From a virus: DNA of 64,000 bases. Where the stretch lies: IMG/VR virus record IMGVR_UViG_3300011270_000006. One strand, written 5' to 3'. A model generated the notes under the pieces. That model ran no database searches. It saw nothing but the letters and a program-made list of their open reading frames with translations, and was not told where the DNA came from. Positions 5,223 to 64,000 of this stretch are shown one piece after another. Numbering within the stretch: the first letter of the stretch is position 1; every line of letters begins with the position of its first letter. The position numbers and the translations under genes are program-made.

Positions 5223-5507
5223 TTATGGCTTACTACCATGTTCAATGTAATGAGATCGTTCCAACCCTAACCCCTCATATCCCTCCCATATCGTATTTCC
5301 TGCTAATAAGCGTACCTGGAGTCTTTCAGACTCCTCTCGTACATAACCAAACAAGGTGCTATAGCCTTTGACGCCATGAATACAATGCACCATAACCTGA
5401 TGCTCAACGCCATTGGTCTGTACCGGCTGGTTTTCATCACACCTTAAACTGCCCTGATTACATCTGTGCATCGCGACACCTCCTGAAAGTTTACTATTCC
5501 AAATCAA
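5223..5507 (-). CDS. hypothetical protein
   Basis: ORF 94 aa directly downstream of the integrase (4-nt overlap). Confidence 0.35.
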   Translation of the reverse strand: MIWNSKLSGGVAMHRCNQGSLRCDENQPVQTNGVEHQVMVHCIHGVKGYSTLFGYVREESERLQVRLLAGNTIWEGYEGLGLERSHYIEHGSKP

Positions 5508-6418
5508 TCTAGATATACAAAGTCTACCGCGTTATTGTCAAGGTTCAATTTACGCTTCTGGTATCGCTCAGTGGTACGCGGATCATCATGTCCTGCTGCG
5601 TACTGAACCTGCATCAACGTAGCACCGCCCTCTAATGCTAATGTAATGAACGTGGCACGCAGTCCGTGAGGAGTAAGCGTGTACACGCCGTTCTTCTCAC
5701 CATACACCTTCACCGTCCTCTCAATGAGCTTATCGCTCACTCTGATTGTGGTCGGACGGTCCCATCGATCAAAGCCCACGAAGAGCGGATCGCCAGGTGG
5801 TGCAGTGGACCTCTGCGTATCTTCAATGTACTCCTGGATGGAGCGGAAGACATCGACAGGCACCTTTGCCTTACGTCGCTTATCTCCCTTGCCGTGCCGA
5901 ATGATAGCAACATGGTGTCCTTGATCCATCATCAAATCACCGATGTTGAGCGCGGCACACTCTGATCGACGTATGCCCGTTCTCAGTAAGAATGAGATCA
6001 GTGCATAATCACGTTTGCCTCGATGCCTTGACTGATCGATGGATGCTAGCAAGTCTTTTGCCTGCTGTTTCGTGAGCGCGGTGTGTGGCGTCTCATTGTT
6101 CGCTTTAGGTATTCCTCTCATGCCTTCAAATGGGTTGGAGGTCCGTATACCGGCGTTAACCTGCTCTCTAAAGATATTTTTAGCGACTGAGATCATGCGC
6201 TTTACTGTCGCACCTGCATGTTTTTCATTAAGCCATGACAGGTACATTATGGCATTGGAGCGCGTGAATTTTCCAGGCACAAGAGCTTGATCTAGCATCC
6301 ATTCCGCCAGTACACGCGCATCGTGCTCATATACTGGCTTTGAGCGAGGCATGAGTTGACCTGTAGCGTCGGCAATGGATGCTGACAGATCGCAAGAGAT
6401 AAGGTCTGTCATTGTCAC
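5504..6418 (-). CDS. int: tyrosine site-specific recombinase (phage integrase/XerCD family)
   Basis: C-terminal catalytic signature ...HGLRATFITLALEGGATLMQVQYAAGHDDPRTTERY (the R..H..R..Y tetrad) plus an N-terminal SAM-like domain. Confidence 0.85.
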   Translation of the reverse strand: MTMTDLISCDLSASIADATGQLMPRSKPVYEHDARVLAEWMLDQALVPGKFTRSNAIMYLSWLNEKHAGATVKRMISVAKNIFREQVNAGIRTSNPFEGMRGIPKANNETPHTALTKQQAKDLLASIDQSRHRGKRDYALISFLLRTGIRRSECAALNIGDLMMDQGHHVAIIRHGKGDKRRKAKVPVDVFRSIQEYIEDTQRSTAPPGDPLFVGFDRWDRPTTIRVSDKLIERTVKVYGEKNGVYTLTPHGLRATFITLALEGGATLMQVQYAAGHDDPRTTERYQKRKLNLDNNAVDFVYLD

Positions 6419-6834
6419 CTTGTACCCACCTCTCGTTGCTGAACAAAGCGTTCATAGTTCTTTGGGAAGAGCATATTTGCCTTCCTGATAGCCTCATCAT
6501 CATTGTCAGCTATAAAACTGTATACCCCTTGATACTCTTTTCCTGTTCCATTTATATCATTCACCCGCAATTCGCCAGGAATATGAACGGTATACCGCCT
6601 CCCTTTGCTACCTGATTTGCGGCGTCCGCGAGAACGCCAGATGATAGATTCTGTTTCTGGATCAAAAGCAAATTTGCCCTGAAGCCGCCAGTAATAGAAA
6701 ATGCTATCATAGCTTTTCTGACTGACACTGGCTTTTTGCTCTCCCATCTCAGGAAGGAGATCTTGAAATGCCTGAAACTTACCCATACTGCCAACCTCCT
6801 TGTATCGTGACGTTAAATGCAAATTTAAAGACAT
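6415..6834 (-). CDS. hypothetical protein translationally coupled to the integrase
   Basis: 139 aa ORF whose stop overlaps the int start (ATGA); basic, could be a recombination directionality factor or other accessory protein. Confidence 0.45.
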   Translation of the reverse strand: MSLNLHLTSRYKEVGSMGKFQAFQDLLPEMGEQKASVSQKSYDSIFYYWRLQGKFAFDPETESIIWRSRGRRKSGSKGRRYTVHIPGELRVNDINGTGKEYQGVYSFIADNDDEAIRKANMLFPKNYERFVQQREVGTR

Positions 6835-8225: not shown

Positions 8226-8619
8226 GTTGCCCTTTGTCGCGCATATCGGCGATCATCTCAGGAGAGAGCACTTCAACCGTACCGTCCACTGACTGAATAA
8301 CCACGCCTATAGCACGGATCTGGATACAGTGTGCTTTCCCAGTAATCAGGCGTTTGCGCACTGTCGTCTCTAGGTGTCCGCGCAGGTCGCCCTCAGTCAT
8401 GATGAAGTCTCGTTGCATAGTTGCCGTGTGATGCGGTATTGACGCTGCTACAGCTAGACCAATCCGTCGATCAATCTCTTTGTTGCGCTCGTCCAGATCG
8501 CCCCATGATAGAAGATGATCATCGGGGACATCTTTACCACCTTGCTCAATCTCCTCTAATTTGCAGGCGATCCACGCATCACGAACTGCCTTGCCTAGTA
8601 TCTCACCTACTGATTCCAT
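8197..8619 (-). CDS. hypothetical protein
   Basis: ORF; start moved to the ATG at 8619 (MESVGEILG) with RBS GGAGAAGG; this removes the overlap with the upstream gene. Confidence 0.45.
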   Translation of the reverse strand: MESVGEILGKAVRDAWIACKLEEIEQGGKDVPDDHLLSWGDLDERNKEIDRRIGLAVAASIPHHTATMQRDFIMTEGDLRGHLETTVRKRLITGKAHCIQIRAIGVVIQSVDGTVEVLSPEMIADMRDKGQLDFSLPEGE

Positions 8620-20161: not shown

Positions 20162-20364
20162 TACGCTCAGTGGCAGAGTGGACGAGCATCAACAACCGCC
20201 TACAACAACGTTGGAATGGAACAAGCAGCAATTGCTAGCATTAGCCGAATGGTAAAGGCACTAGTTTCAACAACTAGACCCGAATAGGGAGTACAGGTCC
20301 AATTCCTGTATGCAATAGCAAAAGACCGACTCGGATTGGGCATTTTCGAGTCGGTCGCTTTTAT
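20155..20364 (+). ncRNA. candidate structured RNA (~205 nt) starting with an acceptor-like 5' strand and D-arm-like GCTCAGTGGCAGAGT, ending in an intrinsic terminator
   Basis: Several local hairpins (CTAG..CTAG, TACAGG..CCTGTA) and a terminator at 20324-20364; no ORF. Confidence 0.3.
20324..20364 (+). terminator. intrinsic terminator
   Basis: GACCGACTCG-gattgggcatttt-CGAGTCGGTC, a 10-bp perfect stem, followed by GCTTTTAT. Confidence 0.6.
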
Positions 20365-30373: not shown

Positions 30374-30771
30374 TGCCAAAAGCAAAGAAGAAACCTCAAC
30401 CCAAACCGAGCGACCTCGCCAGCTTCTGGAAACTCACACGAGATAGACAGGGGAAAGTAAGAGATCGCTATGCTCCTACACTGCCATTCCAGGAGTTGGA
30501 GAGACATGGCATCGCCTATGAGGTAAGTCATGGCGACGAAGTTACTGATCTGGATGCGCTCGTTGCCCAGATCCTGCTCATGCCTGTCAACGATGAGTTC
30601 ACTGTCGACCTTTGGAATGGCAATGCCAAGTTAGGGCGCGGCGAGTACTTCCGAAGCGACAGGACACACCAACTGGTGGAAGTCCTTCACGAAGAGGAGA
30701 ATGCAGTAGGACTGGGTATCGTTCTCAATGAGAAGTACAGGCTAGTGGAGAATAGTGAGGCAGTGCAGTGA
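30374..30771 (+). CDS. hypothetical protein
   Basis: ORF with start at MPKAKKKPQ; weak RBS. Confidence 0.45.
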
Positions 30772-32018
30772 AAGCCATAGATATCTTTACCGGCATTGGC
30801 GGGTGGAATGTGGCGTTATCAACGCTTGGTATCCAGGTGATCATGGCTGCCAATCATAGCCAACCCTCACTTGCTACCAATCGGTTGAACTTCCCCGATA
30901 CCGAGCAAATCCATCTCGATATCATGCAGTGCGATCCTGCACTGATCCCAGATGCGGATCTGTTGTGCGCCAGCCCGGAATGCACCAACCATAGCCATTC
31001 CAAAGGCGTACGATTGCTCTCGCAGAATCAGTTACGTCTGCCCGGTATCTGGACGGATCGCTCTGATGATCCCTTCGTCACGCTCTCCAGAGAAACGATG
31101 AATGGCGTGCATCGTTGGGCTGAAATTAAAGCCTTGCAAGGAAATCCATTCAAAGTCATTTTCCTAGAGAATGTGACGGATATCTATCATTGGAGTGGGT
31201 TGAATGGCTGGTATGCCAACATGGAAAAGCTTGGCTATCATGCTCAGACGATATCCTTCAATAGCATGTTTGCTCGTCCCTTTCCGGTACCCGTACCTCA
31301 GAGTCGGGATCGCTGCTATATCGTGCTCACCCGTCATGGCCTTCCAATCCCTGATATCGCTATTCGCCCGGCTGCTCATTGCCGTTTCTGTCAGGGAGAA
31401 GTCGAAGCCATCCAGTGCTGGCGCAAAACCGCCCAAAATGTACCATTTGGCGACTATGGCGACCAATATGACTACCGTTGCCCAAATTGCAATACGGAAG
31501 TGGTGCCAACGTCTACACCTGCTTACACGGTCATCGATTGGGATTTACCTACGCCGCCGATTGGGGATCGCACCCGACCATTGTGCGAGGAAACCATGCT
31601 CAAAATACACAAGGGACTGCGATGGTACACCTCGCTCACTCCAGACCAGCAGGCACGAAAAACGTTCATGTTGAGCTATTACAAAAATGCCGTCTTACGC
31701 AATGTAGACGGGGTAGCAGGCACCGTCACCACGAGAGATAGGCATGCGCTCATCTCTCTGCCTACCAGTTGGAATCCGGGTGAGGCGGCTCCTGATGTCA
31801 ATCAGTGTGGGTATCGCATGTTTACTTGGTACGAATATCAGCGTTTGATGGGACTCCCTGAGTCTTTCAGGTTCGCCTGTAATGTGACGGAGCGCAAACG
31901 TCAGTTAGGGCTTGCGGTGACACCAGCAGCAGCGCTAGAGGTGGTCAGTCGTGGACTAGCTGCGCTTGGTCATCTTGATATGTATACACACTATAGTGGG
32001 AATGAGGATGTGGCATGA
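30768..32018 (+). CDS. DNA (cytosine-5)-methyltransferase
   Basis: Motif I DIFTGIGGW, motif IV ASPECTNHS (PC catalytic Cys), motif VI FLENV, and a C-terminal target-recognition region. Confidence 0.8.
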   Translation: MKAIDIFTGIGGWNVALSTLGIQVIMAANHSQPSLATNRLNFPDTEQIHLDIMQCDPALIPDADLLCASPECTNHSHSKGVRLLSQNQLRLPGIWTDRSDDPFVTLSRETMNGVHRWAEIKALQGNPFKVIFLENVTDIYHWSGLNGWYANMEKLGYHAQTISFNSMFARPFPVPVPQSRDRCYIVLTRHGLPIPDIAIRPAAHCRFCQGEVEAIQCWRKTAQNVPFGDYGDQYDYRCPNCNTEVVPTSTPAYTVIDWDLPTPPIGDRTRPLCEETMLKIHKGLRWYTSLTPDQQARKTFMLSYYKNAVLRNVDGVAGTVTTRDRHALISLPTSWNPGEAAPDVNQCGYRMFTWYEYQRLMGLPESFRFACNVTERKRQLGLAVTPAAALEVVSRGLAALGHLDMYTHYSGNEDVA

Positions 32019-36489: not shown

Positions 36490-36920
36490 TGCCTTTGGTA
36501 ATCAGCCAGCGTGCCGCCACCTGGAGGCAACCGCTCACGCTCATACCCTGTTGTCACTGCCGTATCACGGTGCGCAACAAAGCCATCGCACTGCTGCAAC
36601 TGCTCTGGTGCAACGTGCCAGCATGCCTCATAGCACAGTGCGTCATGGCGCTACGGGTGCCTGGCTCATGTTACGGTACCGCGTCAGGCTATTGGTTCTG
36701 TGCTGGCTGCTGGCGGCGTCACGCACTCATCAAATTTGCAGAACGCTACTGGCGCGATGAATTCATCGCGCTCTGTTGGCCGCGATTTGTGCAGTCAGGC
36801 GGTTGCACGGTAGTCTCGACGAGCAACCTGCGATACTGGTTGCAGTATAGTATCGAGGCGTCTGATGCTGAGATTTGCGCGGCATATGAGGCGTTTCGTT
36901 TAGGCAAGGAGGCAGTATAA
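36489..36920 (+). CDS. hypothetical Cys-rich protein
   Basis: TGATG overlap with the upstream gene; more than 10 Cys. Confidence 0.4.
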   Translation: MPLVISQRAATWRQPLTLIPCCHCRITVRNKAIALLQLLWCNVPACLIAQCVMALRVPGSCYGTASGYWFCAGCWRRHALIKFAERYWRDEFIALCWPRFVQSGGCTVVSTSNLRYWLQYSIEASDAEICAAYEAFRLGKEAV

Positions 36921-37801
36921 TGGCAATGATGAACCAGTTGAGGTCACCGCTTCCCTGGCAATGCGGCAAACATTATAGCGCTCAATTCATTTTGAGTCAG
37001 TTGCCTACATCAAGTCAGTACGGTATCTTTGTTGATGTATTTGGCGGTGGCGCAAATATCTTGCTCAACAAAGCCGTATCGAGTCATTTGGAAATCTACA
37101 ATGACATCAATGATGATTTAGTGAATTGCTGGATGCATCTGCGAGACGAGCCTGCTCAGATGCAGGAGCGCTTACAGTCCTTGCCCTATGCTCGTTCGCT
37201 CTATTACGCCTATCACAAGAGCCTTGTTGATGGCACACTACTCGATCCACTTGAACGTGCTGTACGATGGTTTTATGTATTACGTAGTAGTTTTCGAGCG
37301 GAAGTATCTGCGTTTCCTAACGGATGGAATGGGAGCGTCAAGGACAAGCTCACCCTTAGCGCGAAAACTTATCGCAATCTTGACTTCCATGCTATTGCTG
37401 AACGTTTTCAGCATGTGAATATTGATTGCCGAGATTTTGAAGCAGTTATTAAACAGTATCAGCAGGTAGAGGATTTGCGCACATTGCTCTATTGTGATCC
37501 ACCCTACATCAACTCGGAGCACTATTACAAACCCTCGAAAGACGCCAACTACACAGCATTTCATCAGCGTCTTGCCTGTGTTCTCAACGAAACGCCAGCA
37601 TTGGTGACGCTCTCGTATTACGAGCATCCCTGGCTTGATGAACTCTATCCTGCCGAAAAGTGGCGGCGCGTGCGATTTGAGACGATTAAGCATAGCCAGC
37701 GTACGAAACCTACGAGGGACAAGGCACCCGAATTGCTGCTCACCAATTACGCGCCAGCAAATGTCACAAAGTCGCTGTGGGACGCGGAGGTTGCCATATG
37801 A
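36920..37801 (+). CDS. Dam-like DNA N6-adenine methyltransferase (D12 class)
   Basis: Motif I VDVFGGGANI and motif IV DPPY (LYCDPPYIN). Confidence 0.8.
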   Translation: MAMMNQLRSPLPWQCGKHYSAQFILSQLPTSSQYGIFVDVFGGGANILLNKAVSSHLEIYNDINDDLVNCWMHLRDEPAQMQERLQSLPYARSLYYAYHKSLVDGTLLDPLERAVRWFYVLRSSFRAEVSAFPNGWNGSVKDKLTLSAKTYRNLDFHAIAERFQHVNIDCRDFEAVIKQYQQVEDLRTLLYCDPPYINSEHYYKPSKDANYTAFHQRLACVLNETPALVTLSYYEHPWLDELYPAEKWRRVRFETIKHSQRTKPTRDKAPELLLTNYAPANVTKSLWDAEVAI

Positions 37802-48072: not shown

Positions 48073-48996
48073 TCATTGACGTTGTGTGGTTGCTGTATTC
48101 CGAAGCCGCCAGAGAAATGCCGAGGCATAGGTGGTATGTACACCAGACTCTTCACGCAATTTCTTCATCGATAGCGTTTCACCGCGTTCCTGCAATACGT
48201 TTATTGCCACTTCTAACTTGCGTTGCGTGACTTCTGGGATACACACATTTCCATATTTTGCCTCTTGTAGACTCGTCTGTGGTATACATCTTGTATGAAT
48301 CTGAACATACTCAGGTGCATAGGCGGTGAGATACTCACGCATGCACCTGAGATAGCGCATCTTGTTCCCCTTCACCGCCTGATACTTCTTCGTGGTCGAG
48401 TCACCACCTGCAATCTCATGCATGGTTTCTGTGTTCTGGCCTTGCATTCCATAGAGACGCGTCATAAGCCCTGTCGCGGTATGTCCTGGTATGGACTCTA
48501 GCGCCTGATAGAGTGGTGTGGTGTCTTGCTCGATTTCCTCGATCATGACTTTCTCTTCGATGTCAAACTCGTCCGTGTCGAATTCATCCAGGAGCGGCAA
48601 GAACTCATATGGCTGGTGTTCTGGTCCAGATGGGAGGGTGATGATATATCGGAAGTGGCAACAATAGTCCAGCATATGTCGGTGCGCGAACTTGAGGAGG
48701 TAGCCTATCGGATTCGGATGGAGAAGCGATTCTTCAAGCTTCTCCACGATAATATGGTTGCCAACATTGACTAACTCTAGCATCGGCATGTCCAGCTTTT
48801 GTAGACGCATGGCGTAGCCTCTAATCACCGGCAGCAGCGAGCAAAGAAACCCATCCTTTGCTGATCTGTCGCCAGCTTGAAGACGTTCTAGATACTCAGC
48901 AGAAGTACCAGCGTAGAGATCTTTGCGGTAGTACTGGATATCACGTTGGTAAAGCTGTTCGCTGGTGAGCAGTGGCCCCAATGGATCGCTCACCAA
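48073..48996 (-). CDS. sigma-70-family-like transcription factor (paralog 1) with C-terminal extension
   Basis: LELVNVGNHIIVEKLEE resembles region 2.2 (DLIQEGNIGLMKAVEKF); LYGMQGQNTETMHEIAG...KMRYLRCMREYL resembles a region 4.2 HTH. Confidence 0.55.
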   Translation of the reverse strand: MVSDPLGPLLTSEQLYQRDIQYYRKDLYAGTSAEYLERLQAGDRSAKDGFLCSLLPVIRGYAMRLQKLDMPMLELVNVGNHIIVEKLEESLLHPNPIGYLLKFAHRHMLDYCCHFRYIITLPSGPEHQPYEFLPLLDEFDTDEFDIEEKVMIEEIEQDTTPLYQALESIPGHTATGLMTRLYGMQGQNTETMHEIAGGDSTTKKYQAVKGNKMRYLRCMREYLTAYAPEYVQIHTRCIPQTSLQEAKYGNVCIPEVTQRKLEVAINVLQERGETLSMKKLREESGVHTTYASAFLWRLRNTATTQRQ

Positions 48997-49499
48997 CGGG
49001 TATCCTTCGTTGGCGGACTCATCCCCGCTTGCAGGATAGCATCGAAGTCCGACATGGTGGTGGCGAGTGCGTCTTCTCTCTCGTCTTCGTCTCGCTGTTC
49101 CTCTTCCGCTTTGAAGGTGTTCGCGTCAAAGTGTAACCCGAACACGGTGATGCCACCAGCGCAGAAGGACAGAATAGCGACACCCTCGCTGAGACTTCGC
49201 ATGGCTTCCCGGCTTTCAGCTATGAGACGCTTTTTCTTTTCCTGTGGTCGCTCAGGCGGAAACATGAGCGTATCACCCAGGGTGCCGAGGGTAAGGGCGA
49301 ACTCCTGAGCATGCTGGTAATCCTGAGCGTTTGGTCCGCCTTTCCAGAGAAGGTGCCGAATGCGTGGAGGGACGGTTGCTTGCAAGTGGGCACGCATCCG
49401 TGCTCGTGTCCGTTCTTCCCAGTGTGGATCTAGCAATTGGCTTCCCTTACGTCTTTTTTTGCTATCGGTGAGAGCGCTCGTATGATAACATCCTTGCAC
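48990..49499 (-). CDS. hypothetical protein
   Basis: ORF 169 aa between the two sigma-like genes. Confidence 0.45.
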   Translation of the reverse strand: MQGCYHTSALTDSKKRRKGSQLLDPHWEERTRARMRAHLQATVPPRIRHLLWKGGPNAQDYQHAQEFALTLGTLGDTLMFPPERPQEKKKRLIAESREAMRSLSEGVAILSFCAGGITVFGLHFDANTFKAEEEQRDEDEREDALATTMSDFDAILQAGMSPPTKDTRW

Positions 49500-49551
49500 A
49501 CCGTATGAGCGCTCTCACGTATAGTATACATGAGTTGCCTCAATCTCTCTG

Positions 49552-50463
49552 TCAATGGCGGCTTTCAACCGACGTATTCCGAAGTCGCCAGAGATATGCC
49601 GATGCATGGGTACTGTAGACACCAGCCTCATCGCGCAGTTTATTCATCGACAGCGTTTCGCCACGCTCCTGCAAAGCTCTCATGGCTGTCTCTAACTTGC
49701 GTTGCGTACGTTCTGGAATGCGTAGTGTCTCATAGTACGTTTGTTGGAGGCTGGTCGTTGGTGCTTGCCTGGAGTGTCTCGCTACATATTCAGGAGCATG
49801 CGTGGTAAGGTAGTTGCGTATCCATTTGAGATACACCGATTTCATATTTCTCGCAGCTTGATATCCTTTCGTCGTCGAGTTACCACCCGTGATCTCCTGC
49901 ATTGTCTCAGCATCTTGATCCTGCAATCCAAAGAGGCGTGCGATAAGTGCCTTGCCTCTCTGACTAGGGATTGCGTCAAGAGCCTGATAGAGCGGTGTCG
50001 CATCATCTTGTTCCTCTTCGTTGGTGGCTGTCTCTTCAATGTCGAACTCATCCGATAGTGGGAGCAGTTCGTATGGCGGAAGCGACGGCCCAGACGGTAG
50101 CGTGATGACACTCCTGAAATGGCGAGAACAGGCAAACATGTATCGGCGTGCGAACGTAAGGAGATAGCCGATAGGTGCAGGATGTAGGAGCGCCTCCTCT
50201 AACTTTTCAACGATGATGAAGTTGCTCGCGCATATCAGTTCCAACATGGGAACATCAGTTGTTTGCAAGTGTGTTGCGTAGCCTCTAATCACCGGCAGCA
50301 GCGAGCAAAGAAACCCATCCTTTGCGGATGTGTCGCCGCGTTGGAGGCGCTCCAGATACTCGACAGAGGTGCCAGGATGGATCACTTCGCGGTAGTAGTC
50401 TACATCCCGTCGATAGAGTTGTTCACTAGTAAGTAGTGGGCCGAACTCGTCTTCCATCTTCAC
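49552..50463 (-). CDS. sigma-70-family-like transcription factor (paralog 2)
   Basis: Same architecture as 48073-48996 (LELICASNFIIVEKLEE; LFGLQDQDAETMQEITG); the two genes share a ~50-bp identical tract (48811-48862 and 50275-50326). Confidence 0.55.
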   Translation of the reverse strand: MKMEDEFGPLLTSEQLYRRDVDYYREVIHPGTSVEYLERLQRGDTSAKDGFLCSLLPVIRGYATHLQTTDVPMLELICASNFIIVEKLEEALLHPAPIGYLLTFARRYMFACSRHFRSVITLPSGPSLPPYELLPLSDEFDIEETATNEEEQDDATPLYQALDAIPSQRGKALIARLFGLQDQDAETMQEITGGNSTTKGYQAARNMKSVYLKWIRNYLTTHAPEYVARHSRQAPTTSLQQTYYETLRIPERTQRKLETAMRALQERGETLSMNKLRDEAGVYSTHASAYLWRLRNTSVESRH

Positions 50464-54603: not shown

Positions 54604-55097
54604 CTCGATTGTTCATCGAGAGCATTGCTTATATCCTCAAGCATAGAACAGATGTACTCTTGCTGGTCAATCTGTCTTCTATCCTCAAATTTAAGAAAGC
54701 TCAGGAATTCCTCTTTTGTCACTGATTTTCCATCAATGCGAATGCCTCCATCGTCAGGACAGGTGTGTTCAAATTGAAGAAGAGCGTAGCCAAGATACTT
54801 GATCTTTGTTGGTCGCTTGGCATTTTCGCGCCTCAAGGAGAAATCTGGATGTGTAAAGGCAAAACGCAGTGCCTGGTCAACAACGGACTGCGTATCTCTT
54901 TGTGCATAGGATGGTACTGCGTTATATGTTTTGATTTCTAAGAATCTGAGGTACCCATAACGGTATTGATGCCAGACAAATCGTTGAGTTCCATCAATAT
55001 CTTCGCCGTCGTAACCGTAGATTGAGGGTATTTCTGGATGGCTCCGAAGCCATTTGCTAAACGGTGTGTCCTTCTCATCTCGACGTGACCTTGTCAT
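54579..55097 (-). CDS. hypothetical protein
   Basis: ORF 172 aa, overlaps neighbours by about 20 nt. Confidence 0.45.
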   Translation of the reverse strand: MTRSRRDEKDTPFSKWLRSHPEIPSIYGYDGEDIDGTQRFVWHQYRYGYLRFLEIKTYNAVPSYAQRDTQSVVDQALRFAFTHPDFSLRRENAKRPTKIKYLGYALLQFEHTCPDDGGIRIDGKSVTKEEFLSFLKFEDRRQIDQQEYICSMLEDISNALDEQSRWEERERW

Positions 55098-56415
55098 GCT
55101 GCACTTCCCCTACCCCACTTAATCCCTTCATTCCACCCAATGCAGATGCGTGCCGATCCTGATCGACTTCTATTCCAATAGAGTGCCGATGAAGCTTGTG
55201 TGCAGCACGCAAGATTGTTCCCGATCCACACATGGGATCGACAATAAGTTGACCAGGCTTCGTCAACTTCTCAATGAAATAGGCAGCTTCGCCTTCACCC
55301 TGTGACCATTCGTGTACAGCTTTATCACCCTTGTCACCGCGATAGAGATCCATCAACCAATCATGCGCAAGAGGCTCGCCTTTACTGAACATGACAATCG
55401 GCTTCCAGTCATTCCATAAGGTATGCTTCCATATCTGAATGTGTCCGCCAGTGTGCTGCACACCCAGAAGCCAGCAATACTCTAAATGCTGTGTAAGAGC
55501 GTCGAGTACCTTTGGAAGAAAGAGTTGGCCGCTATAGGCGAGAAGGATGCCCCCAGGCGTGAGCACTCGCTGCGCAAAAGAGGAGAGATGCGTCCAGAGC
55601 AGGAGTTGTTCCTCTTGGTAAGGAGGATCGGTAAAAATAAGCGATACGGAATTATCCTGAATGCACGTACCGATTTCCATGAAGTCCCCAGGAGGAAGCA
55701 GTTGAATGCTATTTGGCAGGATAATGGTCTTTGCCTGTTCCGTGATTTGTTCTTTTTTAACCTTCGTCTTCTCTTCTTTTATCGCATCCTTGATGGGTTT
55801 ACTTACACGTCTACCAGTTTGCTCTTTTTTCTTAGTCGCCTGCTCAACAATGGCAGATTGACTTTCTTTTGGTAGATTGGCTATGGCCTTTGCATCTGGG
55901 AGCGTAATCGTTCCATTCGCTATATGCTCTTCTAATTCAGGTGCATGCTTCATAATATCTTTGGCGTGCTGTACATACTTCTCGTTGGTCCCAAAGTCTT
56001 TAGCGGCTAAACCGACCGATGCGCCAGATATCAAGATGGAATTTTTTCCATCTTGATATTCTTCGCTTTTATGGTCGCCTCCATGCCTTTTGGCCGATTC
56101 AGCTTCATAGAGAGGTAAACTACGTACCGCAATCATCGCTCTTTGACTACTATCTAAGTGCCGACGCCTAATATTCATGCTTACCGCAAAGGAGATAAGT
56201 GAGCCTTTGCAGTCCCACTCCTGATAGCGTGGCTCGACATTCGCCTCTAGACACGCACGATACCGATTACGTCCATCAATAATCTTGTCCTGGTACGTCC
56301 ATATCGGCTGCTGTAGCCCATGTTCACGGATATCTGTAACCAATTCGTCAAACGCTTGGCCTTCGATGAGGGGAAAGAGATTTGCAACTTCGTGGAATTC
56401 CACTACCACCTCCAC
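55075..56415 (-). CDS. ParB-like nuclease domain fused to DNA N6/N4 methyltransferase
   Basis: N-terminal ParB/Srx motif (GRNRYRAC); C-terminal motif IV IFTDPPYQ and motif I VDPMCGSGT (beta-class amino-methyltransferase order). Confidence 0.8.
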   Translation of the reverse strand: MEVVVEFHEVANLFPLIEGQAFDELVTDIREHGLQQPIWTYQDKIIDGRNRYRACLEANVEPRYQEWDCKGSLISFAVSMNIRRRHLDSSQRAMIAVRSLPLYEAESAKRHGGDHKSEEYQDGKNSILISGASVGLAAKDFGTNEKYVQHAKDIMKHAPELEEHIANGTITLPDAKAIANLPKESQSAIVEQATKKKEQTGRRVSKPIKDAIKEEKTKVKKEQITEQAKTIILPNSIQLLPPGDFMEIGTCIQDNSVSLIFTDPPYQEEQLLLWTHLSSFAQRVLTPGGILLAYSGQLFLPKVLDALTQHLEYCWLLGVQHTGGHIQIWKHTLWNDWKPIVMFSKGEPLAHDWLMDLYRGDKGDKAVHEWSQGEGEAAYFIEKLTKPGQLIVDPMCGSGTILRAAHKLHRHSIGIEVDQDRHASALGGMKGLSGVGEVQHDKVTSR

Positions 56416-60920: not shown

Positions 60921-60995
60921 TATATGGTTAAATGCTTTCAATGTTTCGTAACTATTATACGTAGCCGAGGAATAGATGTCAAGGGAAATCACGGT
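60921..60995. repeat. left arm of ~70-bp imperfect inverted repeat flanking the MerR-GNAT gene
   Basis: Shares TTTCAATGTTTCGTA and GATGTCAAGGGAAATCA with the reverse complement of 61965-62046. Confidence 0.55.
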
Positions 60996-61043: not shown

Positions 61044-61865
61044 TTAATTGTTATAGACTTTCCATTTAGCTAGTGCGGCTTTGTATGGTTGGATTAACGG
61101 GATACCTGATTGTTCTACATCGATAATGAAGTTTCTCTCATTTGTTGTCGATACAATTTCAGTGAAGCCCAGACGCTTCAATAGATTAATGCCATCACGG
61201 GTATCGCTCCTGGCTGCGAGAAGTTTAATCTCGATACCTCTCTGTCCTAAGTTAACCAGAAATCGAAGGATGCCACGAATCAGCGTTGATCCTCTCGCTC
61301 GTTTAATCTTAAATCCGGTTTGTGATCGAACCGCCATTCCCATAATGAATATGCAGGCAGGCTGTCCAGGTCTGTATTGCTGAATATCGTCGCCATTGAC
61401 AAGTCTTGTGGATGGTGTCGGATCATCAAAGAGTTGATAAATCTTCTCCTCAGTGAGTGGGGGAGCAAACACGCATCCGACAATTTTACCTCCGACTTTG
61501 TTCCTCTCAATAAAGGCTACTTCTGGATTACGCTGTATCCATTCCATGCGCCTCTCAACTGTATCGCCACCACCAAACACCCCGATAAGGAGGTTGACAG
61601 TTTCGCGTATATCCTGTTCTGTTGCTACCATAAATCTTGGTCCTGGCTCTCCTGGTTCTGTGTAAAATTCATCGATAACTTTTACAAGGTTATCTACATC
61701 TTCGCGTTTATAGAAACCCTGCCCCATCCCAGGTGGAACAAGACGCTCAACCTTGCCTTGCTGGACGTAGTAACGCAACTTTCCATCACTGATGTTACCA
61801 AGTCTTCTCTTGGCAGTGGTCGCAGTACAATAGCCTATTGGTGGATGTCCTCTTTGCACTATCAT
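61044..61865 (-). CDS. MerR-like HTH fused to GNAT N-acetyltransferase
   Basis: N-terminal YCTATTAKRRLGNISDGKLRYYVQQGKV (MerR/HTH_17-like); C-terminal GNAT motif A RGSTLIRGILRFLVNLGQRGIEIKLLA; start uncertain (61865 or 61898). Confidence 0.55.
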   Translation of the reverse strand: MIVQRGHPPIGYCTATTAKRRLGNISDGKLRYYVQQGKVERLVPPGMGQGFYKREDVDNLVKVIDEFYTEPGEPGPRFMVATEQDIRETVNLLIGVFGGGDTVERRMEWIQRNPEVAFIERNKVGGKIVGCVFAPPLTEEKIYQLFDDPTPSTRLVNGDDIQQYRPGQPACIFIMGMAVRSQTGFKIKRARGSTLIRGILRFLVNLGQRGIEIKLLAARSDTRDGINLLKRLGFTEIVSTTNERNFIIDVEQSGIPLIQPYKAALAKWKVYNN

Positions 61866-61964
61866 AGTATCTCGCTTTCTCTGATGTATAGACATCATTA
61901 TTGTATGCGAAATTTTACACAATGACAATACATTGAAGCATCGAATAATTACAACGCCATGAAA

Positions 61965-62046
61965 TTTCCTGTATTTTGCCTTGATTTCCCTTGACACATC
62001 AATGTTTTTCAGGCATACTAAAAATGGTACGAAACATTGAAAGTAT
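61965..62046. repeat. right arm of the inverted repeat; contains outward promoter TTGACA-17-CATACT
   Basis: TGATTTCCCTTGACAcATC and TACGAAACATTGAAAG mirror the left arm. Confidence 0.55.
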
Positions 62047-62068
62047 TAAAACGTGTTTAGGAGAGATA

Positions 62069-62290
62069 TGGATGAGTAATACCACGTTTCAGCACCTTTT
62101 GTTAGAGGCAAATCTTTCTCTCGGTGGTTGGTCACGAGCCGCCAATGTTGATCCGAAGACGGCGCGAAAGGCTATTCGTGGTGAACGGGTCCAGCCTCTC
62201 AAGGCATATGCACTACTCAAGGCATTAAGTAAAGCGCTAGGTCGAGAAGTTGAGGCAGATGATATCCCAGAGTGGAGGAGCGTGAGTTAA
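62069..62290 (+). CDS. XRE-family HTH protein
   Basis: Start at 62069 with RBS TAGGAGAG; LSLGGWSRAANVDPKTARKAIRG matches the HTH pattern. Confidence 0.5.
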   Translation, partial: WMSNTTFQHLLLEANLSLGGWSRAANVDPKTARKAIRGERVQPLKAYALLKALSKALGREVEADDIPEWRSVS

Positions 62291-62327
62291 AAGTGTCAAC
62301 CGTAGGGAAACGCGACCATTTTTCAGA
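62288..62327 (+). repeat. conserved ~40-bp intergenic motif, copy R1
   Basis: TAAAAGTGTCAACCGTAGGGAAACGCGACCATTTTTCAGAG. Confidence 0.7.
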
Positions 62328-62343
62328 GAAAGGGAGCACACAC

Positions 62344-62634
62344 ATGGCGACCAATCCGCTCGGCAAACGTTGCGACAACAAAATGTCACCGTCTGGCAAA
62401 CTGCTGTGTATCCATCCAGGGTGCCAGCGCATCGCCACCGTTCGGGTCACGATGAGCGGACGGTTCCTCCACTCTTTCCGGTGTGCCAGTCACATTGGGA
62501 GCGCAGCAGTGGTGCAGGAGCGTAACACGGCTGGATTCATTGGTGAGACACGAGTCTTGGCTGGTTTCGGGCCGCTACGCTACACGGCGCGGTGGCAGGA
62601 ACGTGCTGATAGCAATGCCTATAGCCAGGTGTAG
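62344..62634 (+). CDS. small Cys/His protein
   Basis: Start at 62344 with RBS AAGGGAG; CDNK...CIHPGC...C..H. Confidence 0.45.
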   Translation: MATNPLGKRCDNKMSPSGKLLCIHPGCQRIATVRVTMSGRFLHSFRCASHIGSAAVVQERNTAGFIGETRVLAGFGPLRYTARWQERADSNAYSQV

Positions 62635-62649
62635 GAGAAAGGAACGTTC

Positions 62650-62868
62650 ATGAACGCTGAGCCGTTGGAAGTGCATGACATTGTAGACTTTCGTGGGAAA
62701 CGTGCGCAAGTGTTCGCTTTGTATTCTCGTGTGGAGGATGACGGTTCTGCACTGGTGTTGAGGTGCGGCATCAAAATGCTCAATGGTCGAAAGGATGCTG
62801 CCGAGCGTTGGGTGAAACCTGAGCGAGTTCTGTTAGTGAGGCATAGCGAAATAAAGTGTCGAGCGTAG
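62650..62868 (+). CDS. hypothetical small protein
   Basis: ORF 72 aa. Confidence 0.4.
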   Translation: MNAEPLEVHDIVDFRGKRAQVFALYSRVEDDGSALVLRCGIKMLNGRKDAAERWVKPERVLLVRHSEIKCRA

Positions 62869-62891
62869 GGAAATCCGACCATTTTTGAAAG
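62852..62891 (+). repeat. conserved intergenic motif, copy R2
   Basis: ATAAAGTGTCGAGCGTAGGGAAATCCGACCATTTTTGAAAG. Confidence 0.7.
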
Positions 62892-62898
62892 TGAGTAT

Positions 62899-63201
62899 GT
62901 GGATATGGAGCATCTTGGCAATGTGCGTCGTCGCATCAAATGGGCGGCTCAGGGCAATGAGGCAGCCACGAACAAGTTGCTGACGCTGCTTTCGGGTTTG
63001 GAGTTCGATCGAGCGTTGTGGGAGGAGATTACGCAGCACATGGCGGATACACAGAGTCACCTGCGCAATGCGTTGGGGTACTTGCCAGATAGCGAGGCGA
63101 AGACGGACTGGGAGGCGTTATTGCAGGACGAAGCAAGACCACCGGATATGGTGCGAAGCGCAGTAAAAGGGGCGCATTTCGCAGGAAAGGAGCAACAATG
63201 A
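62899..63201 (+). CDS. hypothetical small protein
   Basis: ORF 100 aa. Confidence 0.45.
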   Translation: MDMEHLGNVRRRIKWAAQGNEAATNKLLTLLSGLEFDRALWEEITQHMADTQSHLRNALGYLPDSEAKTDWEALLQDEARPPDMVRSAVKGAHFAGKEQQ

Positions 63202-63383
63202 CAGCAGCAGAGGCTATTCGCGCATTTCTCACGGCTCATCCCACGTGGCGTGGCGTGGAAGACGCTCTTTCCGTCAAGGAAAGGGATGAGTGGACATACA
63301 TTGTGTTTCAGGGATCGGAGATCGGGCGCGTAAAAATTGAAGGCAGGACTATTCTTGCTGAGGCTCTTTGGACTACCAGTTAA
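63198..63383 (+). CDS. hypothetical small protein
   Basis: ORF 61 aa, ATGA-coupled. Confidence 0.35.
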   Translation: MTAAEAIRAFLTAHPTWRGVEDALSVKERDEWTYIVFQGSEIGRVKIEGRTILAEALWTTS

Positions 63384-63410
63384 AAGTGTCCAGCGTAGGG
63401 ATTTTGAGGC
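63371..63410 (+). repeat. conserved intergenic motif, copy R3
   Basis: TAAAAGTGTCCAGCGTAGGGATTTTGAGGCATTTTCAGGG. Confidence 0.7.
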
Positions 63411-63431
63411 ATTTTCAGGGAAGGCAGACAC

Positions 63432-63638
63432 ATGGATATCTTTGGTTGGCTTCGTCCGAAGGCACCAGCGACGAGTGGATTGGTGATCGAGGAGTTATCG
63501 TTCGTAGGGACAACACAAGAGCTTGCAGCGCACCTACAGACGCTGGCCGATGAACATGGATGGGTGCTAGAGACGGATCAGGAGAAGGTGCAAGCGTTTA
63601 TTGAGCGGTTGAGCAAATTGTCACATCCGCAGAAGTAG
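63432..63638 (+). CDS. hypothetical small protein
   Basis: ORF 68 aa. Confidence 0.4.
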   Translation: MDIFGWLRPKAPATSGLVIEELSFVGTTQELAAHLQTLADEHGWVLETDQEKVQAFIERLSKLSHPQK

Positions 63639-63671
63639 TGCGAAGCGTAGTAAAATCGAGGCATTTTGTAG
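63632..63671 (+). repeat. conserved intergenic motif, copy R4 (more diverged)
   Basis: GAAGTAGTGCGAAGCGTAGTAAAATCGAGGCATTTTGTAG. Confidence 0.6.
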
Positions 63672-63741
63672 TTTGGACGCCTCTCCTACGCAGTTCCCGC
63701 CGAGTAGGAGAGGCTCACCAAGAGGAAGGGTGAACTTCCAG

Positions 63742-64000
63742 ATGGCTAATGAAATTATACAAGAAACGCTGTCATTAGCGGACGCTGCGATCACGACGGA
63801 GAGCATCGTCAATGCTGATGGCACGCTCACGGTGATTGCGCGGTCGGCAATAGCCTTTAGCGTGCTGGTGTACTCCGTGAGTGGCGGATCGGCTATCAGT
63901 CCACTTGCGCAAGCTGAGTACGAGGATCGGGTGTGGAGTTATGCGGTGCAACACCTGGACTCGATGAAGGCCGTGCAGTTCCAGAACCATTGGCAGTGCG
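63742..64000 (+). CDS. hypothetical protein, 3' end outside the window
   Basis: ATG at 63742 is 9 nt after GAGGAAGGGTGA; open to the window end. Confidence 0.4.
   Translation, partial: MANEIIQETLSLADAAITTESIVNADGTLTVIARSAIAFSVLVYSVSGGSAISPLAQAEYEDRVWSYAVQHLDSMKAVQFQNHWQC

What the first reader, a model, noticed from the sequence alone, without database searches (positions are those of the whole stretch)
62285..63700. Conserved ~40-bp motif repeated in front of each gene of a small-gene array
Four copies of TAAAAGTGTCnAnCGTAGGGAAAnnCGACCATTTTTnAnAG occur at 62288, 62852, 63371 and 63632. Each starts at or overlaps the stop codon of one small gene and ends 15-25 nt before the next start (R4 is further away). 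CGTAG and CATTTT are invariant and always exactly 16 nt apart. The intervening bases vary without keeping a hairpin, which argues for a protein-recognised bipartite DNA motif rather than an RNA structure. The motif matches neither sigma70 nor ECF consensus. The element encodes two sigma-70-like paralogs (48073-50463), which are obvious candidates for recognising such element-specific promoters.
Basis: seen in the sequence. Interest (0 to 1): 0.65.

Follow-up and report, generated by a model that had tools for sequence, protein, structure and literature searches.

The report
Repeated junction motif in small-gene array
A 32-base DNA motif sits in one orientation in front of five of the small unrelated genes in the early-gene array of an uncultured soil mobile element, most likely acting as internal promoters; this kind of arrangement is already known from phages, so it is modestly interesting.

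Summary
CGTAG-N11-CATTTT occurs four times, only on the + strand and only at 62301-63667. I found a fifth, degenerate copy (GTGCGAAGCGCAGTAAAAGGGGCGCATTTC, 63151-63180) inside the 3' end of g4, just ahead of g5. A weight matrix scores the five sites at 39-46 bits, against 5 bits for the next best site in 64 kb.

The flanking genes are unrelated ORFans. No RNA fold is conserved and nothing matches Rfam.

The array lies downstream of a canonical sigma-70 promoter (TTGACA-17-CATACT, 61991-62019), in the switch region of a phage-like integrative element that is probably from Ktedonobacteria.

The motif is absent from 551 kb of related elements and from every collection scanned. At least one relative (L088) and perhaps a second (L026) carry their own, different junction repeats. 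In L088 a TATAAAT box has the same geometry to the start codon as CATTTT has here.

The two "sigma-like" paralogs are divergent sigma-70 family proteins (profile E = 2e-29 against RpoS/SigA). Nothing links them to the motif.

Best reading: weak, factor-dependent internal promoters (GTGnnn-18-CATTTy with a conserved CGyAG block in the spacer), confidence about 0.4. Roadblock or operator sites, an RNA-level signal and recombination junctions remain open.

The parts
62292..62323 (+). Motif copy R1 (AGTGTCAACCGTAGGGAAACGCGACCATTTTT), between g1 and g2. The g1 TAA stop at 62288-62290 lies in the A-rich left flank.
   Evidence: 44.6 bits
62855..62886 (+). Motif copy R2 (AGTGTCGAGCGTAGGGAAATCCGACCATTTTT). 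The g3 stop codon is the TAG of CGTAG. It precedes g4.
   Evidence: 46.5 bits
63150..63181 (+). Motif copy R5, newly found and degenerate (GGTGCGAAGCGCAGTAAAAGGGGCGCATTTCG). It lies inside the last 16 codons of g4, 17 nt before the g5 ATG.
   Evidence: 38.8 bits; leave-one-out 17.5 against a background maximum of 3.5
63385..63416 (+). Motif copy R3 (AGTGTCCAGCGTAGGGATTTTGAGGCATTTTC), between g5 and g6. Its left half resembles R1/R2 and its right half resembles R4.
   Evidence: 41.4 bits
63637..63668 (+). Motif copy R4 (AGTGCGAAGCGTAGTAAAATCGAGGCATTTTG), after g6 and ahead of the conserved module g7 ... 188-aa membrane protein ... DUF87 ATPase.
   Evidence: 46.3 bits
63679..63714 (+). Stable hairpin (GCCTCTCCTAC / GTAGGAGAGGC, 14-nt loop) 11 nt after R4 and 28 nt before the g7 ATG. 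It is about 5 nt from the start site predicted if CATTTT is a -10 element. No T tract follows it.
   Evidence: -33.1 kcal/mol, z -2.65. Equivalent hairpins occur in L077, L080, L081 and L085, with one compensatory pair. No terminator-like site is called.
61991..62019 (+). Canonical sigma-70-type promoter of the array (TTGACA-17-CATACT), upstream of g1.
   Evidence: The same -35/-10 layout is conserved in the switch regions of about 39 related loci.
61999..62040 (.). Inverted repeat TCAATGTTT (61999-62007 +, 62032-62040 -) bracketing the -10 and start of the g1 promoter. It is the presumed operator of the switch and is not related to the array motif.
   Evidence: Further copies lie at 61936 (-) and 60938 (+); none lies in the array.
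62075..62290 (+). g1, 71 aa. By eye it is a Cro/Xre-like helix-turn-helix protein; it is the first gene of the array and a candidate binder of the motif.
   Evidence: No Pfam or PHROG hit. The HTH assignment is my reading of the sequence.
62344..63638 (+). g2 (62344-62634), g3 (62650-62868), g4 (62905-63201), g5 (63198-63383) and g6 (63432-63638): unrelated small ORFans.
   Evidence: no paralogy; no homologs in related arrays; g2 has no relative among 5.8 billion proteins.
63743..64000 (+). g7 (100 aa, runs off the window). It is the first gene of the unit that continues to the DUF87 ATPase.
61044..61868 (-). Divergent 273-aa regulator with a weak MerR-type HTH match. It is conserved next to such arrays in relatives.
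48073..50463 (-). Two divergent sigma-70 family paralogs (48073-48996 and 49552-50463; 63% identical) with a 169-aa ORF between them. They are candidate recognisers only; no link to the motif has been shown.

Best explanation
The five copies are cis-acting DNA signals that work as weak, factor-dependent internal promoters. They split the early small-gene array into short transcription units: R1 drives g2-g3, R2 drives g4, R5 drives g5, R3 drives g6, and R4 drives g7 through to the DUF87 ATPase.

In this reading:
- CATTTy is the -10 element. It keeps the A at -11 and the T at -7, as does the element's own main promoter -10, CATACT.
- The invariant GTG, 18 nt upstream of the hexamer, is the remnant of a -35 element (GTGTCA against TTGACA).
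- The invariant A-S-CGyAG-KRAWW block between them is contacted by an extra factor: an activator or an element-encoded sigma.
- Transcripts would start about 7 nt after CATTTy, right at the Shine-Dalgarno sequence. For R4 they would start 5 nt before a conserved stem-loop that could stabilise the 5' end.

Shown: the motif, its uniqueness, orientation and geometry; the lack of RNA structure; the unrelatedness of the flanking genes; the canonical upstream promoter.

Inferred: that RNA polymerase starts here, and who recognises the motif.
For: - All five copies lie on the coding strand, and each ends 16-21 nt before a start codon (75 nt for R4).
- The invariant blocks have fixed spacing.
- GTGTCA-18-CATTTT matches 7 of 12 sigma-70 positions, including A(-11) and T(-7) (read from the sequence).
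- The element's confirmed-consensus promoter also uses a C-A-T -10 hexamer, CATACT.
- In relative L088, four junction cassettes place TTGCTATAAATAGCAGAAAGAAGG 18-22 nt before each ATG. That is the same geometry and a similar following CAG-purine-rich Shine-Dalgarno tract as here.
- R4 is followed by a conserved hairpin at the predicted 5' end.
- There is no consistent RNA fold and no Rfam family.
- The flanking genes are unrelated, so the repeat is not a by-product of gene duplication.
- The element encodes sigma-70 family proteins that could supply a private specificity.
Against: - The best-conserved block (CGyAG) falls in what would be the spacer.
- The hexamers are poor (5-7 of 12) and do not pass a consensus scan.
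- The predicted starts fall on or within the Shine-Dalgarno sequence, which would be truncated at R3.
- A strong canonical promoter already precedes the array.
- There is no copy anywhere else in 67.5 kb of the element.
- There is no copy in 551 kb of relatives or in the genome, metagenome and viral collections.
- The L088 TATAAAT box is not called by the scanner either, so the analogy rests on my reading.
- There are no transcript data.
Confidence: 0.4

Rival explanations
1. The copies are operator or roadblock sites, working like stoperators. An element-encoded DNA-binding protein (g1, the Cro-like first gene, or another protein) binds the long asymmetric motif at each gene junction and blocks or modulates elongation and re-initiation through the array, silencing the ORFans during lysogeny or timing their expression.
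For: - The motif is long, information-rich and asymmetric, lies in a single orientation relative to transcription, and overlaps stop codons. This matches the mycobacteriophage cluster A stoperators (PMC9283540).
- It sits directly downstream of a divergent regulator / Cro-like switch.
- It is element-specific, as immunity specificities are.
- The 9-mer ACCATTTTT (3 occurrences in the window: R1, R2 and 62020-62028 on the minus strand) and GTGTCAAGGGAAA (61985-61997, minus strand) lie over the start and the -35 of the g1 promoter.
Against: - The switch region holds no full copy. The fragments are inverted and permuted, and GTCAAGGG is simply the family-conserved -35 flank.
- The evident operator there is a different inverted repeat, TCAATGTTT, which is absent from the array.
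- Stoperators are 13 bp and spread genome-wide; here there are five sites within 1.4 kb and none elsewhere.
- No DNA-binding domain could be confirmed in g1 by Pfam or PHROGs.
Confidence: 0.22
2. The motif acts at the RNA level, as a signal in the polycistronic mRNA between a stop codon and the next Shine-Dalgarno sequence. It could be a binding or cleavage site for an RNA-binding protein or endoribonuclease, or a U-rich translational enhancer. This would resemble the Start-Associated Sequences of cluster K mycobacteriophages.
For: - It is always on the transcribed strand, between a stop codon and the Shine-Dalgarno sequence at near-constant distance.
- It lies downstream of a strong promoter that would transcribe all copies.
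- The invariant GUG and CAU can pair in every copy.
- SAS/ESAS motifs are a precedent for start-associated repeats of unknown function (PMC3203893).
Against: - Folding energies are no better than shuffles for 4 of the 5 copies, and the pairing register differs between copies.
- There is no covariation, because the pairing bases are invariant.
- There is no Rfam match.
- The motif ends 16-21 nt before the start codon and does not include the ribosome-binding site, unlike SAS.
Confidence: 0.15
3. The copies are recombination junctions or cassette boundaries. They are mainly substrates or scars of homologous exchange that shuffles ORFan cassettes in a hyperplastic region, as PeSLs do in T4-like phages. 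Any regulatory role would be secondary or absent.
For: - The genes between the copies are unrelated ORFans with no counterpart in related arrays.
- The repeat reaches into the last codon plus the stop of the upstream gene (AGT TAA in R1 and R3).
- The copies are mosaic: R3 has the left half of R1/R2 and the right half of R4, and R4 and R5 share GTGCGAAGCGyAGTAAAA.
- L088 has 90-nt junction units that are 95% identical and begin in the last codons, CAG TCT GCG TAG.
- PeSL precedent: PMC2839356 and PMC4122927.
Against: - A 32-40 nt repeat is short for efficient homologous recombination.
- The conservation is block-wise with fixed spacing, which is the signature of recognition and not of recent copying.
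- No sister genome is close enough to show an actual exchange (the closest relative's regulator is 69% identical).
- No site-specific recombinase lies next to the array.
Confidence: 0.1

Closest known systems
PeSL (promoter-early stem-loop) regulatory cassettes of T4-like phages (Arbiol et al. 2010, PMC2839356; Comeau et al. 2014, PMC4122927)
   Same: Both are short repeated cassettes in one orientation in front of small, non-conserved ORFans in a hyperplastic early region. The copies are mosaic, and the flanking genes are unrelated and differ between relatives.
   Different: PeSLs are strong sigma-70-like promoters joined to a terminator stem-loop. Here the hexamers are weak (5-7 of 12). Four copies have no stem-loop and none is followed by a terminator-like hairpin with a T tract. 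An extra invariant CGyAG block lies between the hexamers. The host is probably a Chloroflexota bacterium and not a proteobacterium.
Stoperators of cluster A mycobacteriophages (L5 gp71 and TipsytheTRex repressor; PMC9283540)
   Same: Both are asymmetric motifs at gene junctions that often overlap stop codons, are oriented with transcription, and are element-specific.
   Different: Stoperators are 13 bp, number about 25-30, are spread over the whole genome, and share their sequence with the operator at the early promoter. Here there are five 32-nt copies within 1.4 kb, and the switch operator (TCAATGTTT inverted repeat) is different. No repressor with an HTH plus Stoperator domain was identified.
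Start-Associated Sequences (SAS/ESAS) of cluster K mycobacteriophages (PMC3203893)
   Same: Both are repeated one-orientation motifs just upstream of the start codons of unrelated genes, with function still unknown.
   Different: SAS is a 13-bp motif that includes the ribosome-binding site and lies a few bases from the start codon, and ESAS adds 17-bp inverted repeats. Here the motif ends 16-21 nt before the start, excludes the Shine-Dalgarno sequence, and has no conserved inverted repeat.
Phage-specific promoters read by phage-encoded sigma factors (for example Bacillus phage SPO1 gp28 and gp33/34, T4 gp55; from my own knowledge)
   Same: Both involve a private, highly conserved promoter-like consensus unlike the host consensus, in an element that encodes divergent sigma-70 family proteins.
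   Different: Those regulons comprise many promoters spread across middle and late genes. Here the sites are confined to one early array downstream of a host-type promoter, and the block spacing (CGyAG, 11 nt, CATTTy) does not fit a -35/-10 pair.

Membership tests
PeSL regulatory cassette | Located in a hyperplastic region rich in small non-essential ORFans | tested here: met
   g2-g6 are unrelated to each other and absent from related arrays. g2 has no relative among 5.8 billion proteins.
PeSL regulatory cassette | Strong sigma-70-like promoter | tested here: not met
   The consensus scan calls no site at any copy. The best manual fit, GTGTCA-18-CATTTT, matches 7 of 12 positions; the other copies match 5-6 of 12.
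PeSL regulatory cassette | Adjacent stem-loop that terminates transcription | tested here: not met
   No terminator-like site in 61800-64000. Fold z-scores of the copies are near 0. Only R4 is followed by a hairpin, and that hairpin lacks a T tract.
PeSL regulatory cassette | Recombination between copies reshuffles genes between close relatives | not testable with these tools
   No relative closer than 69% (regulator) or 65% (ATPase) protein identity was found. The metagenome copies are 100% identical across the array.
Stoperator system (cluster A mycobacteriophages) | Same asymmetric sequence at the early-promoter operator and at the dispersed sites | tested here: not met
   No full copy in the switch region. 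Only the fragments ACCATTTTT and GTGTCAAGGGAAA occur there, on the opposite strand. The switch operator is a TCAATGTTT inverted repeat that is absent from the array.
Stoperator system (cluster A mycobacteriophages) | Many sites across the genome, oriented with transcription | tested here: inconclusive
   Orientation is met: 5 of 5 sites are on the coding strand. Distribution is not met within the 67.5 kb seen. About 40 kb of the element remain unseen.
Stoperator system (cluster A mycobacteriophages) | Cognate monomeric repressor with HTH plus Stoperator domain | not tested
   No structure or profile comparison was made. Neither g1 nor the 273-aa regulator has a relevant Pfam hit.
Alternative-sigma / phage-sigma promoter | Two conserved blocks at fixed spacing compatible with -35/-10 contacts | tested here: inconclusive
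   The spacing is fixed. However, CGyAG to CATTTy is only 11 nt. GTG to CATTTy fits (18-nt spacer) but leaves the best-conserved block in the spacer.
Alternative-sigma / phage-sigma promoter | A cognate sigma factor is encoded by the element | tested here: met
   The paralogs at 48073-48996 and 49552-50463 belong to the sigma-70 family according to a profile of 84 relatives (E = 2e-29 to RpoS, regions 2 and 4). 37 of the 84 relatives hit Sigma70_r2. That they are cognate to this motif is not shown.
Alternative-sigma / phage-sigma promoter | Transcripts start a fixed distance downstream, dependent on that sigma | not testable with these tools
   This needs 5' end mapping or in vitro transcription.
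Integron attC cassette array | Imperfect inverted repeats (R''-L'' / L'-R') forming a folded single strand, with an adjacent integron integrase | tested here: not met
   The copies have no significant fold. The neighbouring genes are a MerR-like regulator and a primase-helicase. The only tyrosine recombinase is 56 kb away, at 5504-6418.
Start-Associated Sequence (cluster K mycobacteriophages) | 13-bp motif that includes the ribosome-binding site, a few bases from the start codon | tested here: not met
   The motif ends 16-21 nt before the start codon and the Shine-Dalgarno sequence lies outside it. SAS definition from PMC3203893.

The most novel reading that the evidence does not exclude
The motif is a private three-block promoter class (GTG / A-S-CGyAG / CATTTy) read by the element's own divergent sigma-70 family proteins. 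Their extra C-terminal helix-turn-helix domain would contact the middle block. That would amount to a self-contained transcription system in an uncultured phage-like element of about 100 kb from Ktedonobacteria-type hosts, with each lineage of the family evolving its own junction signal.
Probability: 0.12. Interest if true: 0.55.

Novelty: new variant of a known kind. Interest (0 to 1): 0.3.

Why it matters
If these are internal promoters or operators, they show that the "repeated regulatory cassette in front of every ORFan" design, known from T4-like phages and mycobacteriophages, also operates in mobile elements of an almost unstudied soil lineage, probably Ktedonobacteria (Chloroflexota). 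Here it uses a consensus unlike the host-type promoter that sits next to it. That would give a handle on how such elements time and insulate expression of rapidly exchanged accessory genes. It would also give a concrete DNA target for testing the specificity of a new, divergent branch of sigma-70 proteins. It would not change any general principle.

Tried and rejected
- Literal N16 spacing: one unrelated hit. The real gap is 11 nt.
- Motif scans of public collections: genome contigs 0 hits, JGI metagenomes 0 hits, IMG/VR 15 single chance-level hits.
- Protein-anchored retrieval of relatives:
  - The 273-aa regulator gave 21 proteins and 48 metagenome loci, and none in 185,000 species genomes.
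  - The ATPase gave 38 proteins and 3 IMG/VR contigs.
  - No locus carries the motif.
- Antisense promoter. The reverse complement of the left block resembles a -35 element (TTGACA, TCGACA, TGGACA, TTCGCA x2), but no -10 follows at 16-18 nt in any copy, nor in the L026 look-alikes. Rejected.
- ECF-type reading (CGTA as -10). Nothing is conserved 16-17 nt upstream (sequence). Rejected.
- T7-like single-subunit promoter (..CGTA|GGGAAA). There is no RNA polymerase-sized ORF in the window, and the conserved CATTTT at +12 would be unexplained. Rejected as unsupported.
- MerR-type spacer operator. The spacer block is not a dyad, and the regulator family's conserved operator is TCAATGTTT.
- Integron attC. 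Rejected (see the membership test).
- Tandem gene duplication. The small proteins are unrelated.
- A loose regular-expression search for the left block in all loci produced only noise.
- AlphaFold model of the sigma paralog from a 2-sequence alignment: pLDDT 48, unusable, so no fold search was run. An hhalign comparison with E. coli RpoE gave nothing.
- The full 104-kb or 69-kb source contig could not be retrieved. Sigma relatives could not be found in IMG/VR.
- No similar DNA or protein in annotated phages or plasmids.
Full report
**1. Observation**

CGTAG-N11-CATTTT occurs four times in the 64-kb window, with CGTAG at 62301, 62864, 63394 and 63646. All four are on the + strand. Allowing one mismatch adds nothing, and 0 of 100 dinucleotide-preserving shuffles reach four matches. 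The longer consensus AAGTGTCnAnCGTAGGGAAAnnCGACCATTTT matches R1 and R2 exactly.

A self-comparison of the array found a fifth copy, GGTGCGAAGCGCAGTAAAAGGGGCGCATTTCG, at 63150-63181. It lies inside the last 16 codons of g4 and ends 17 nt before the g5 ATG.

The five-way alignment leaves these positions invariant: GTG, A, CG-AG, A and CATTT. A 32-nt weight matrix scores the five sites 38.8-46.5 bits, against 5.3 for the next best position on either strand. In leave-one-out tests every held-out site (at least 17.5 bits) exceeds the background maximum (at most 8.0). The feature is therefore real, non-random, strand-specific and confined to 1.5 kb.

**2. Setting**

The array starts at g1 (62075). 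By eye g1 is a 71-aa Cro/Xre-like protein. It is followed by g2-g6 and g7.

Metagenome contigs that carry the same sequence (L016-L019) are 100% identical through the array. They show that it continues through g8, g9 and a 188-aa membrane protein to a 613-aa DUF87-type ATPase, with no further motif copy.

The small proteins are not paralogs. They have no homologs in the arrays of related elements, and g2 has no relative among 5.8 billion proteins.

Upstream lies a divergent switch region:
- a canonical TTGACA-17-CATACT promoter for g1 (61991-62019);
- a TTGTCA-17-TACAAT promoter for the divergent 273-aa MerR-like regulator;
- an inverted repeat TCAATGTTT bracketing the g1 promoter's -10.

The same promoter/operator layout is seen in about 39 related switch regions.

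The window also encodes an integrase, an amidase, DnaB, ParA, a primase-helicase and three DNA methyltransferases.

Relatives place a transglycosylase and a terminase downstream of the ATPase. IMG/VR holds three related contigs. The nearest cultured homolog of the ATPase lies in an integrated element of Thermosporothrix hazakensis.

I therefore read the window as part of a temperate, phage-like element of about 100 kb from an uncultured soil bacterium, probably Ktedonobacteria. The host assignment rests on a 42% identical protein and is only an inference. No relative exists among 185,579 species genomes or among annotated phages and plasmids.

**3. What the motif is not**

- **A conserved RNA structure.** The five copies fold no better than shuffles (z = 0.35, 0.64, -0.45, 0.63), except R5 (z = -2.06). 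The helices use different registers in R1-R3 and in R4-R5. Rfam has no match at E up to 1.
- **An intrinsic terminator**.
- **A remnant of gene duplication**.
- **An antisense promoter.** There is no -10 after the -35-like reverse complement.
- **An ECF-type or T7-type promoter, or an attC site** (reasons are given under "tried and rejected").
- **The switch operator.** TCAATGTTT never occurs in the array. Two fragments of the motif do occur over the g1 promoter on the opposite strand: ACCATTTTT at 62020-62028 and GTGTCAAGGGAAA at 61985-61997. The second is largely the family-conserved -35 flank. I leave the first unexplained.

**4. Comparative evidence**

No related locus (551 kb in all) has a matrix hit above 6 bits. 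The motif was also absent from the genome, metagenome and viral scans.

The phenomenon does recur in other elements, with different sequences:
- L088 (ATPase 41% identical) has four junction cassettes, at 6542, 6916, 7231 and 7531. In the best-preserved cassettes the upstream gene's stop lies inside GCGTAGCGC and a hairpin follows; all four carry TTGCTA[T/G]AAATAGCAGAAAGAAGG and an ATG 18-22 nt after the TATAAA box. Two units are 95% identical over 90 nt.
- L026 (regulator 47% identical) has TAG-GTG[C/T]GTCAA-type words after three stop codons and a second repeat present twice. Three-site motifs of this size also arise in shuffled intergenic sequences, so this case is weak.

Element-specific junction repeats therefore occur in at least one and perhaps two other members of this family. 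In L088 the box that occupies the position of CATTTT looks like an extended -10 (TGCTATAAAT). That is my reading, because the simple scanner does not call it.

**5. Mechanism**

The geometry fits internal promoters best. CATTTy would be a weak -10 that retains A(-11) and T(-7), like the element's own CATACT. The invariant GTG lies 18 nt upstream of the hexamer, where TTG of a -35 would lie. R1-R3 have an A-rich flank further upstream. The predicted starts fall just before each Shine-Dalgarno sequence.

At R4 the predicted start is 5 nt before a -33 kcal/mol hairpin. That hairpin has counterparts in L077, L080, L081 and L085, with a compensatory U-A to G-C change.

The weak hexamers and the invariant CGyAG block imply a required extra factor. 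They also carry an extra C-terminal HTH-like tail. Nothing connects them to the motif.

Against the promoter reading:
- the best-conserved block would be in the spacer;
- the predicted starts crowd the ribosome-binding sites;
- a strong promoter already feeds the array;
- the "regulon" is only these five sites.

I put internal promoters at about 0.4, roadblock or operator sites at about 0.22, an RNA-level signal at about 0.15, and recombination junctions without a regulatory role at about 0.1.

**6. Comparison with known systems**

It works most like the PeSL cassettes of T4-like phages (PMC2839356, PMC4122927) but fails two of their defining features, the strong sigma-70 promoter and the terminator stem-loop. 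It resembles stoperators (PMC9283540) in asymmetry, orientation and overlap with stop codons, but not in size, distribution or identity with the switch operator. It resembles SAS/ESAS (PMC3203893) in being start-associated, but it excludes the ribosome-binding site. It is therefore a new variant of a known kind of phage regulatory repeat and not a member of any named family.

**7. Verdict**

Interest is modest (0.3).

Noticed in passing
window 63679-63714; L077 about 8262-8297; L080 about 2587-2620; L081 about 1222-1255; L085 about 8415-8445: A stable hairpin with no T tract sits 10-30 nt before the ribosome-binding site of a gene ahead of the conserved module (membrane protein plus DUF87 ATPase) in five elements. 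The stems differ (GCCTCTCCTAC, GCTCTCCTG, GCTCTCCC, GCTCGCCC, GGAGACTCGG), with one compensatory U-A to G-C change. It could be a 5' stabiliser, a tail-less terminator or attenuator separating early genes from the module, or a DNA structure.
   Followed up: partly
window 61985-62040, 61936, 60938: The inverted repeat TCAATGTTT brackets the -10 of the g1 promoter, with further copies near the regulator's own promoter and at 60938. Related elements have analogous palindromes (for example AAGGTTTCGAAACCTT in L034) at the same place. This is probably the operator of the conserved 273-aa MerR-like regulator.
   Followed up: partly
window 62020-62028 (-) and 61985-61997 (-): Fragments of the array motif (ACCATTTTT, found only 3 times in the window; GTGTCAAGGGAAA) lie on the opposite strand over the start and the -35 of the g1 promoter, in permuted order. 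The second is mostly the family-conserved -35 flank. The first is unexplained.
   Followed up: partly
window 48073-48996 (-), 49552-50463 (-): These are two 63% identical, highly divergent sigma-70 family proteins that Pfam, PHROGs and PDB sequence search do not see directly. They carry an extra C-terminal tail of about 70 aa that looks like an HTH. They have 154 relatives among 1.84 billion representative proteins, and some of those relatives carry HTH_17 or other HTH domains.
   Followed up: partly
L088 6440-7560: Four junction cassettes lie ahead of small genes (best-preserved units: stop within GCGTAGCGC, then a hairpin; all four: GCTA[T/G]AAATAGCAGAAAGAAGG). Two units are 95% identical over 90 nt. 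The box contains TATAAATA, the T4 late-promoter consensus as I recall it.
   Followed up: partly
L026 (minus strand) 6854, 6580, 6244; 5640, 5315: TAG-(N2-3)-G[TC]G[TC]GTCAA[TG]T follows three stop codons, and TAGTCGGTCGGGT[AG]CCGTAAA occurs twice, in a 17-gene array next to a 47% identical regulator. GTAGTGCG is shared with R4 of the window. Motif counts of this size also appear in shuffled controls.
   Followed up: partly
L023-L025 (about 14.7-16.5 kb in L023): Relatives that carry the same regulator and a small-gene array also encode a ResT/TelK-type protelomerase and ParA. At least some members of the family are therefore probably linear plasmid-prophages.
   Followed up: no
L027 2925-3007; L085 16576-16710: Tandem or near-tandem repeats lie next to replication genes: a 22-nt unit ATGCACGGCTTTCCGTCTTCCT (three overlapping 39-nt copies at 22-nt spacing, about 3.8 units) near DnaB/primase in L027, and CGAGATTGTTCAAAATTTGA x3 upstream of DnaB in L085. 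These look like iterons.
   Followed up: no
window 30768-32018, 36920-37801, 55075-56415: The element carries three DNA methyltransferases: a C5-cytosine enzyme, a Dam-like D12 enzyme, and an N6/N4 enzyme with a weak ParB-HTH match. It also has a tRNA-Leu(CAA) at 20235-20317, an integrase at 5504-6418 and an amidase at 1210-2115.
   Followed up: no
window 62899-63201: The last 16 residues of g4 (VRSAVKGAHFAGKEQQ) are encoded by motif copy R5 plus the g5 ribosome-binding site. This suggests that g4 lost an earlier stop codon and now reads through a former intergenic cassette.
   Followed up: no
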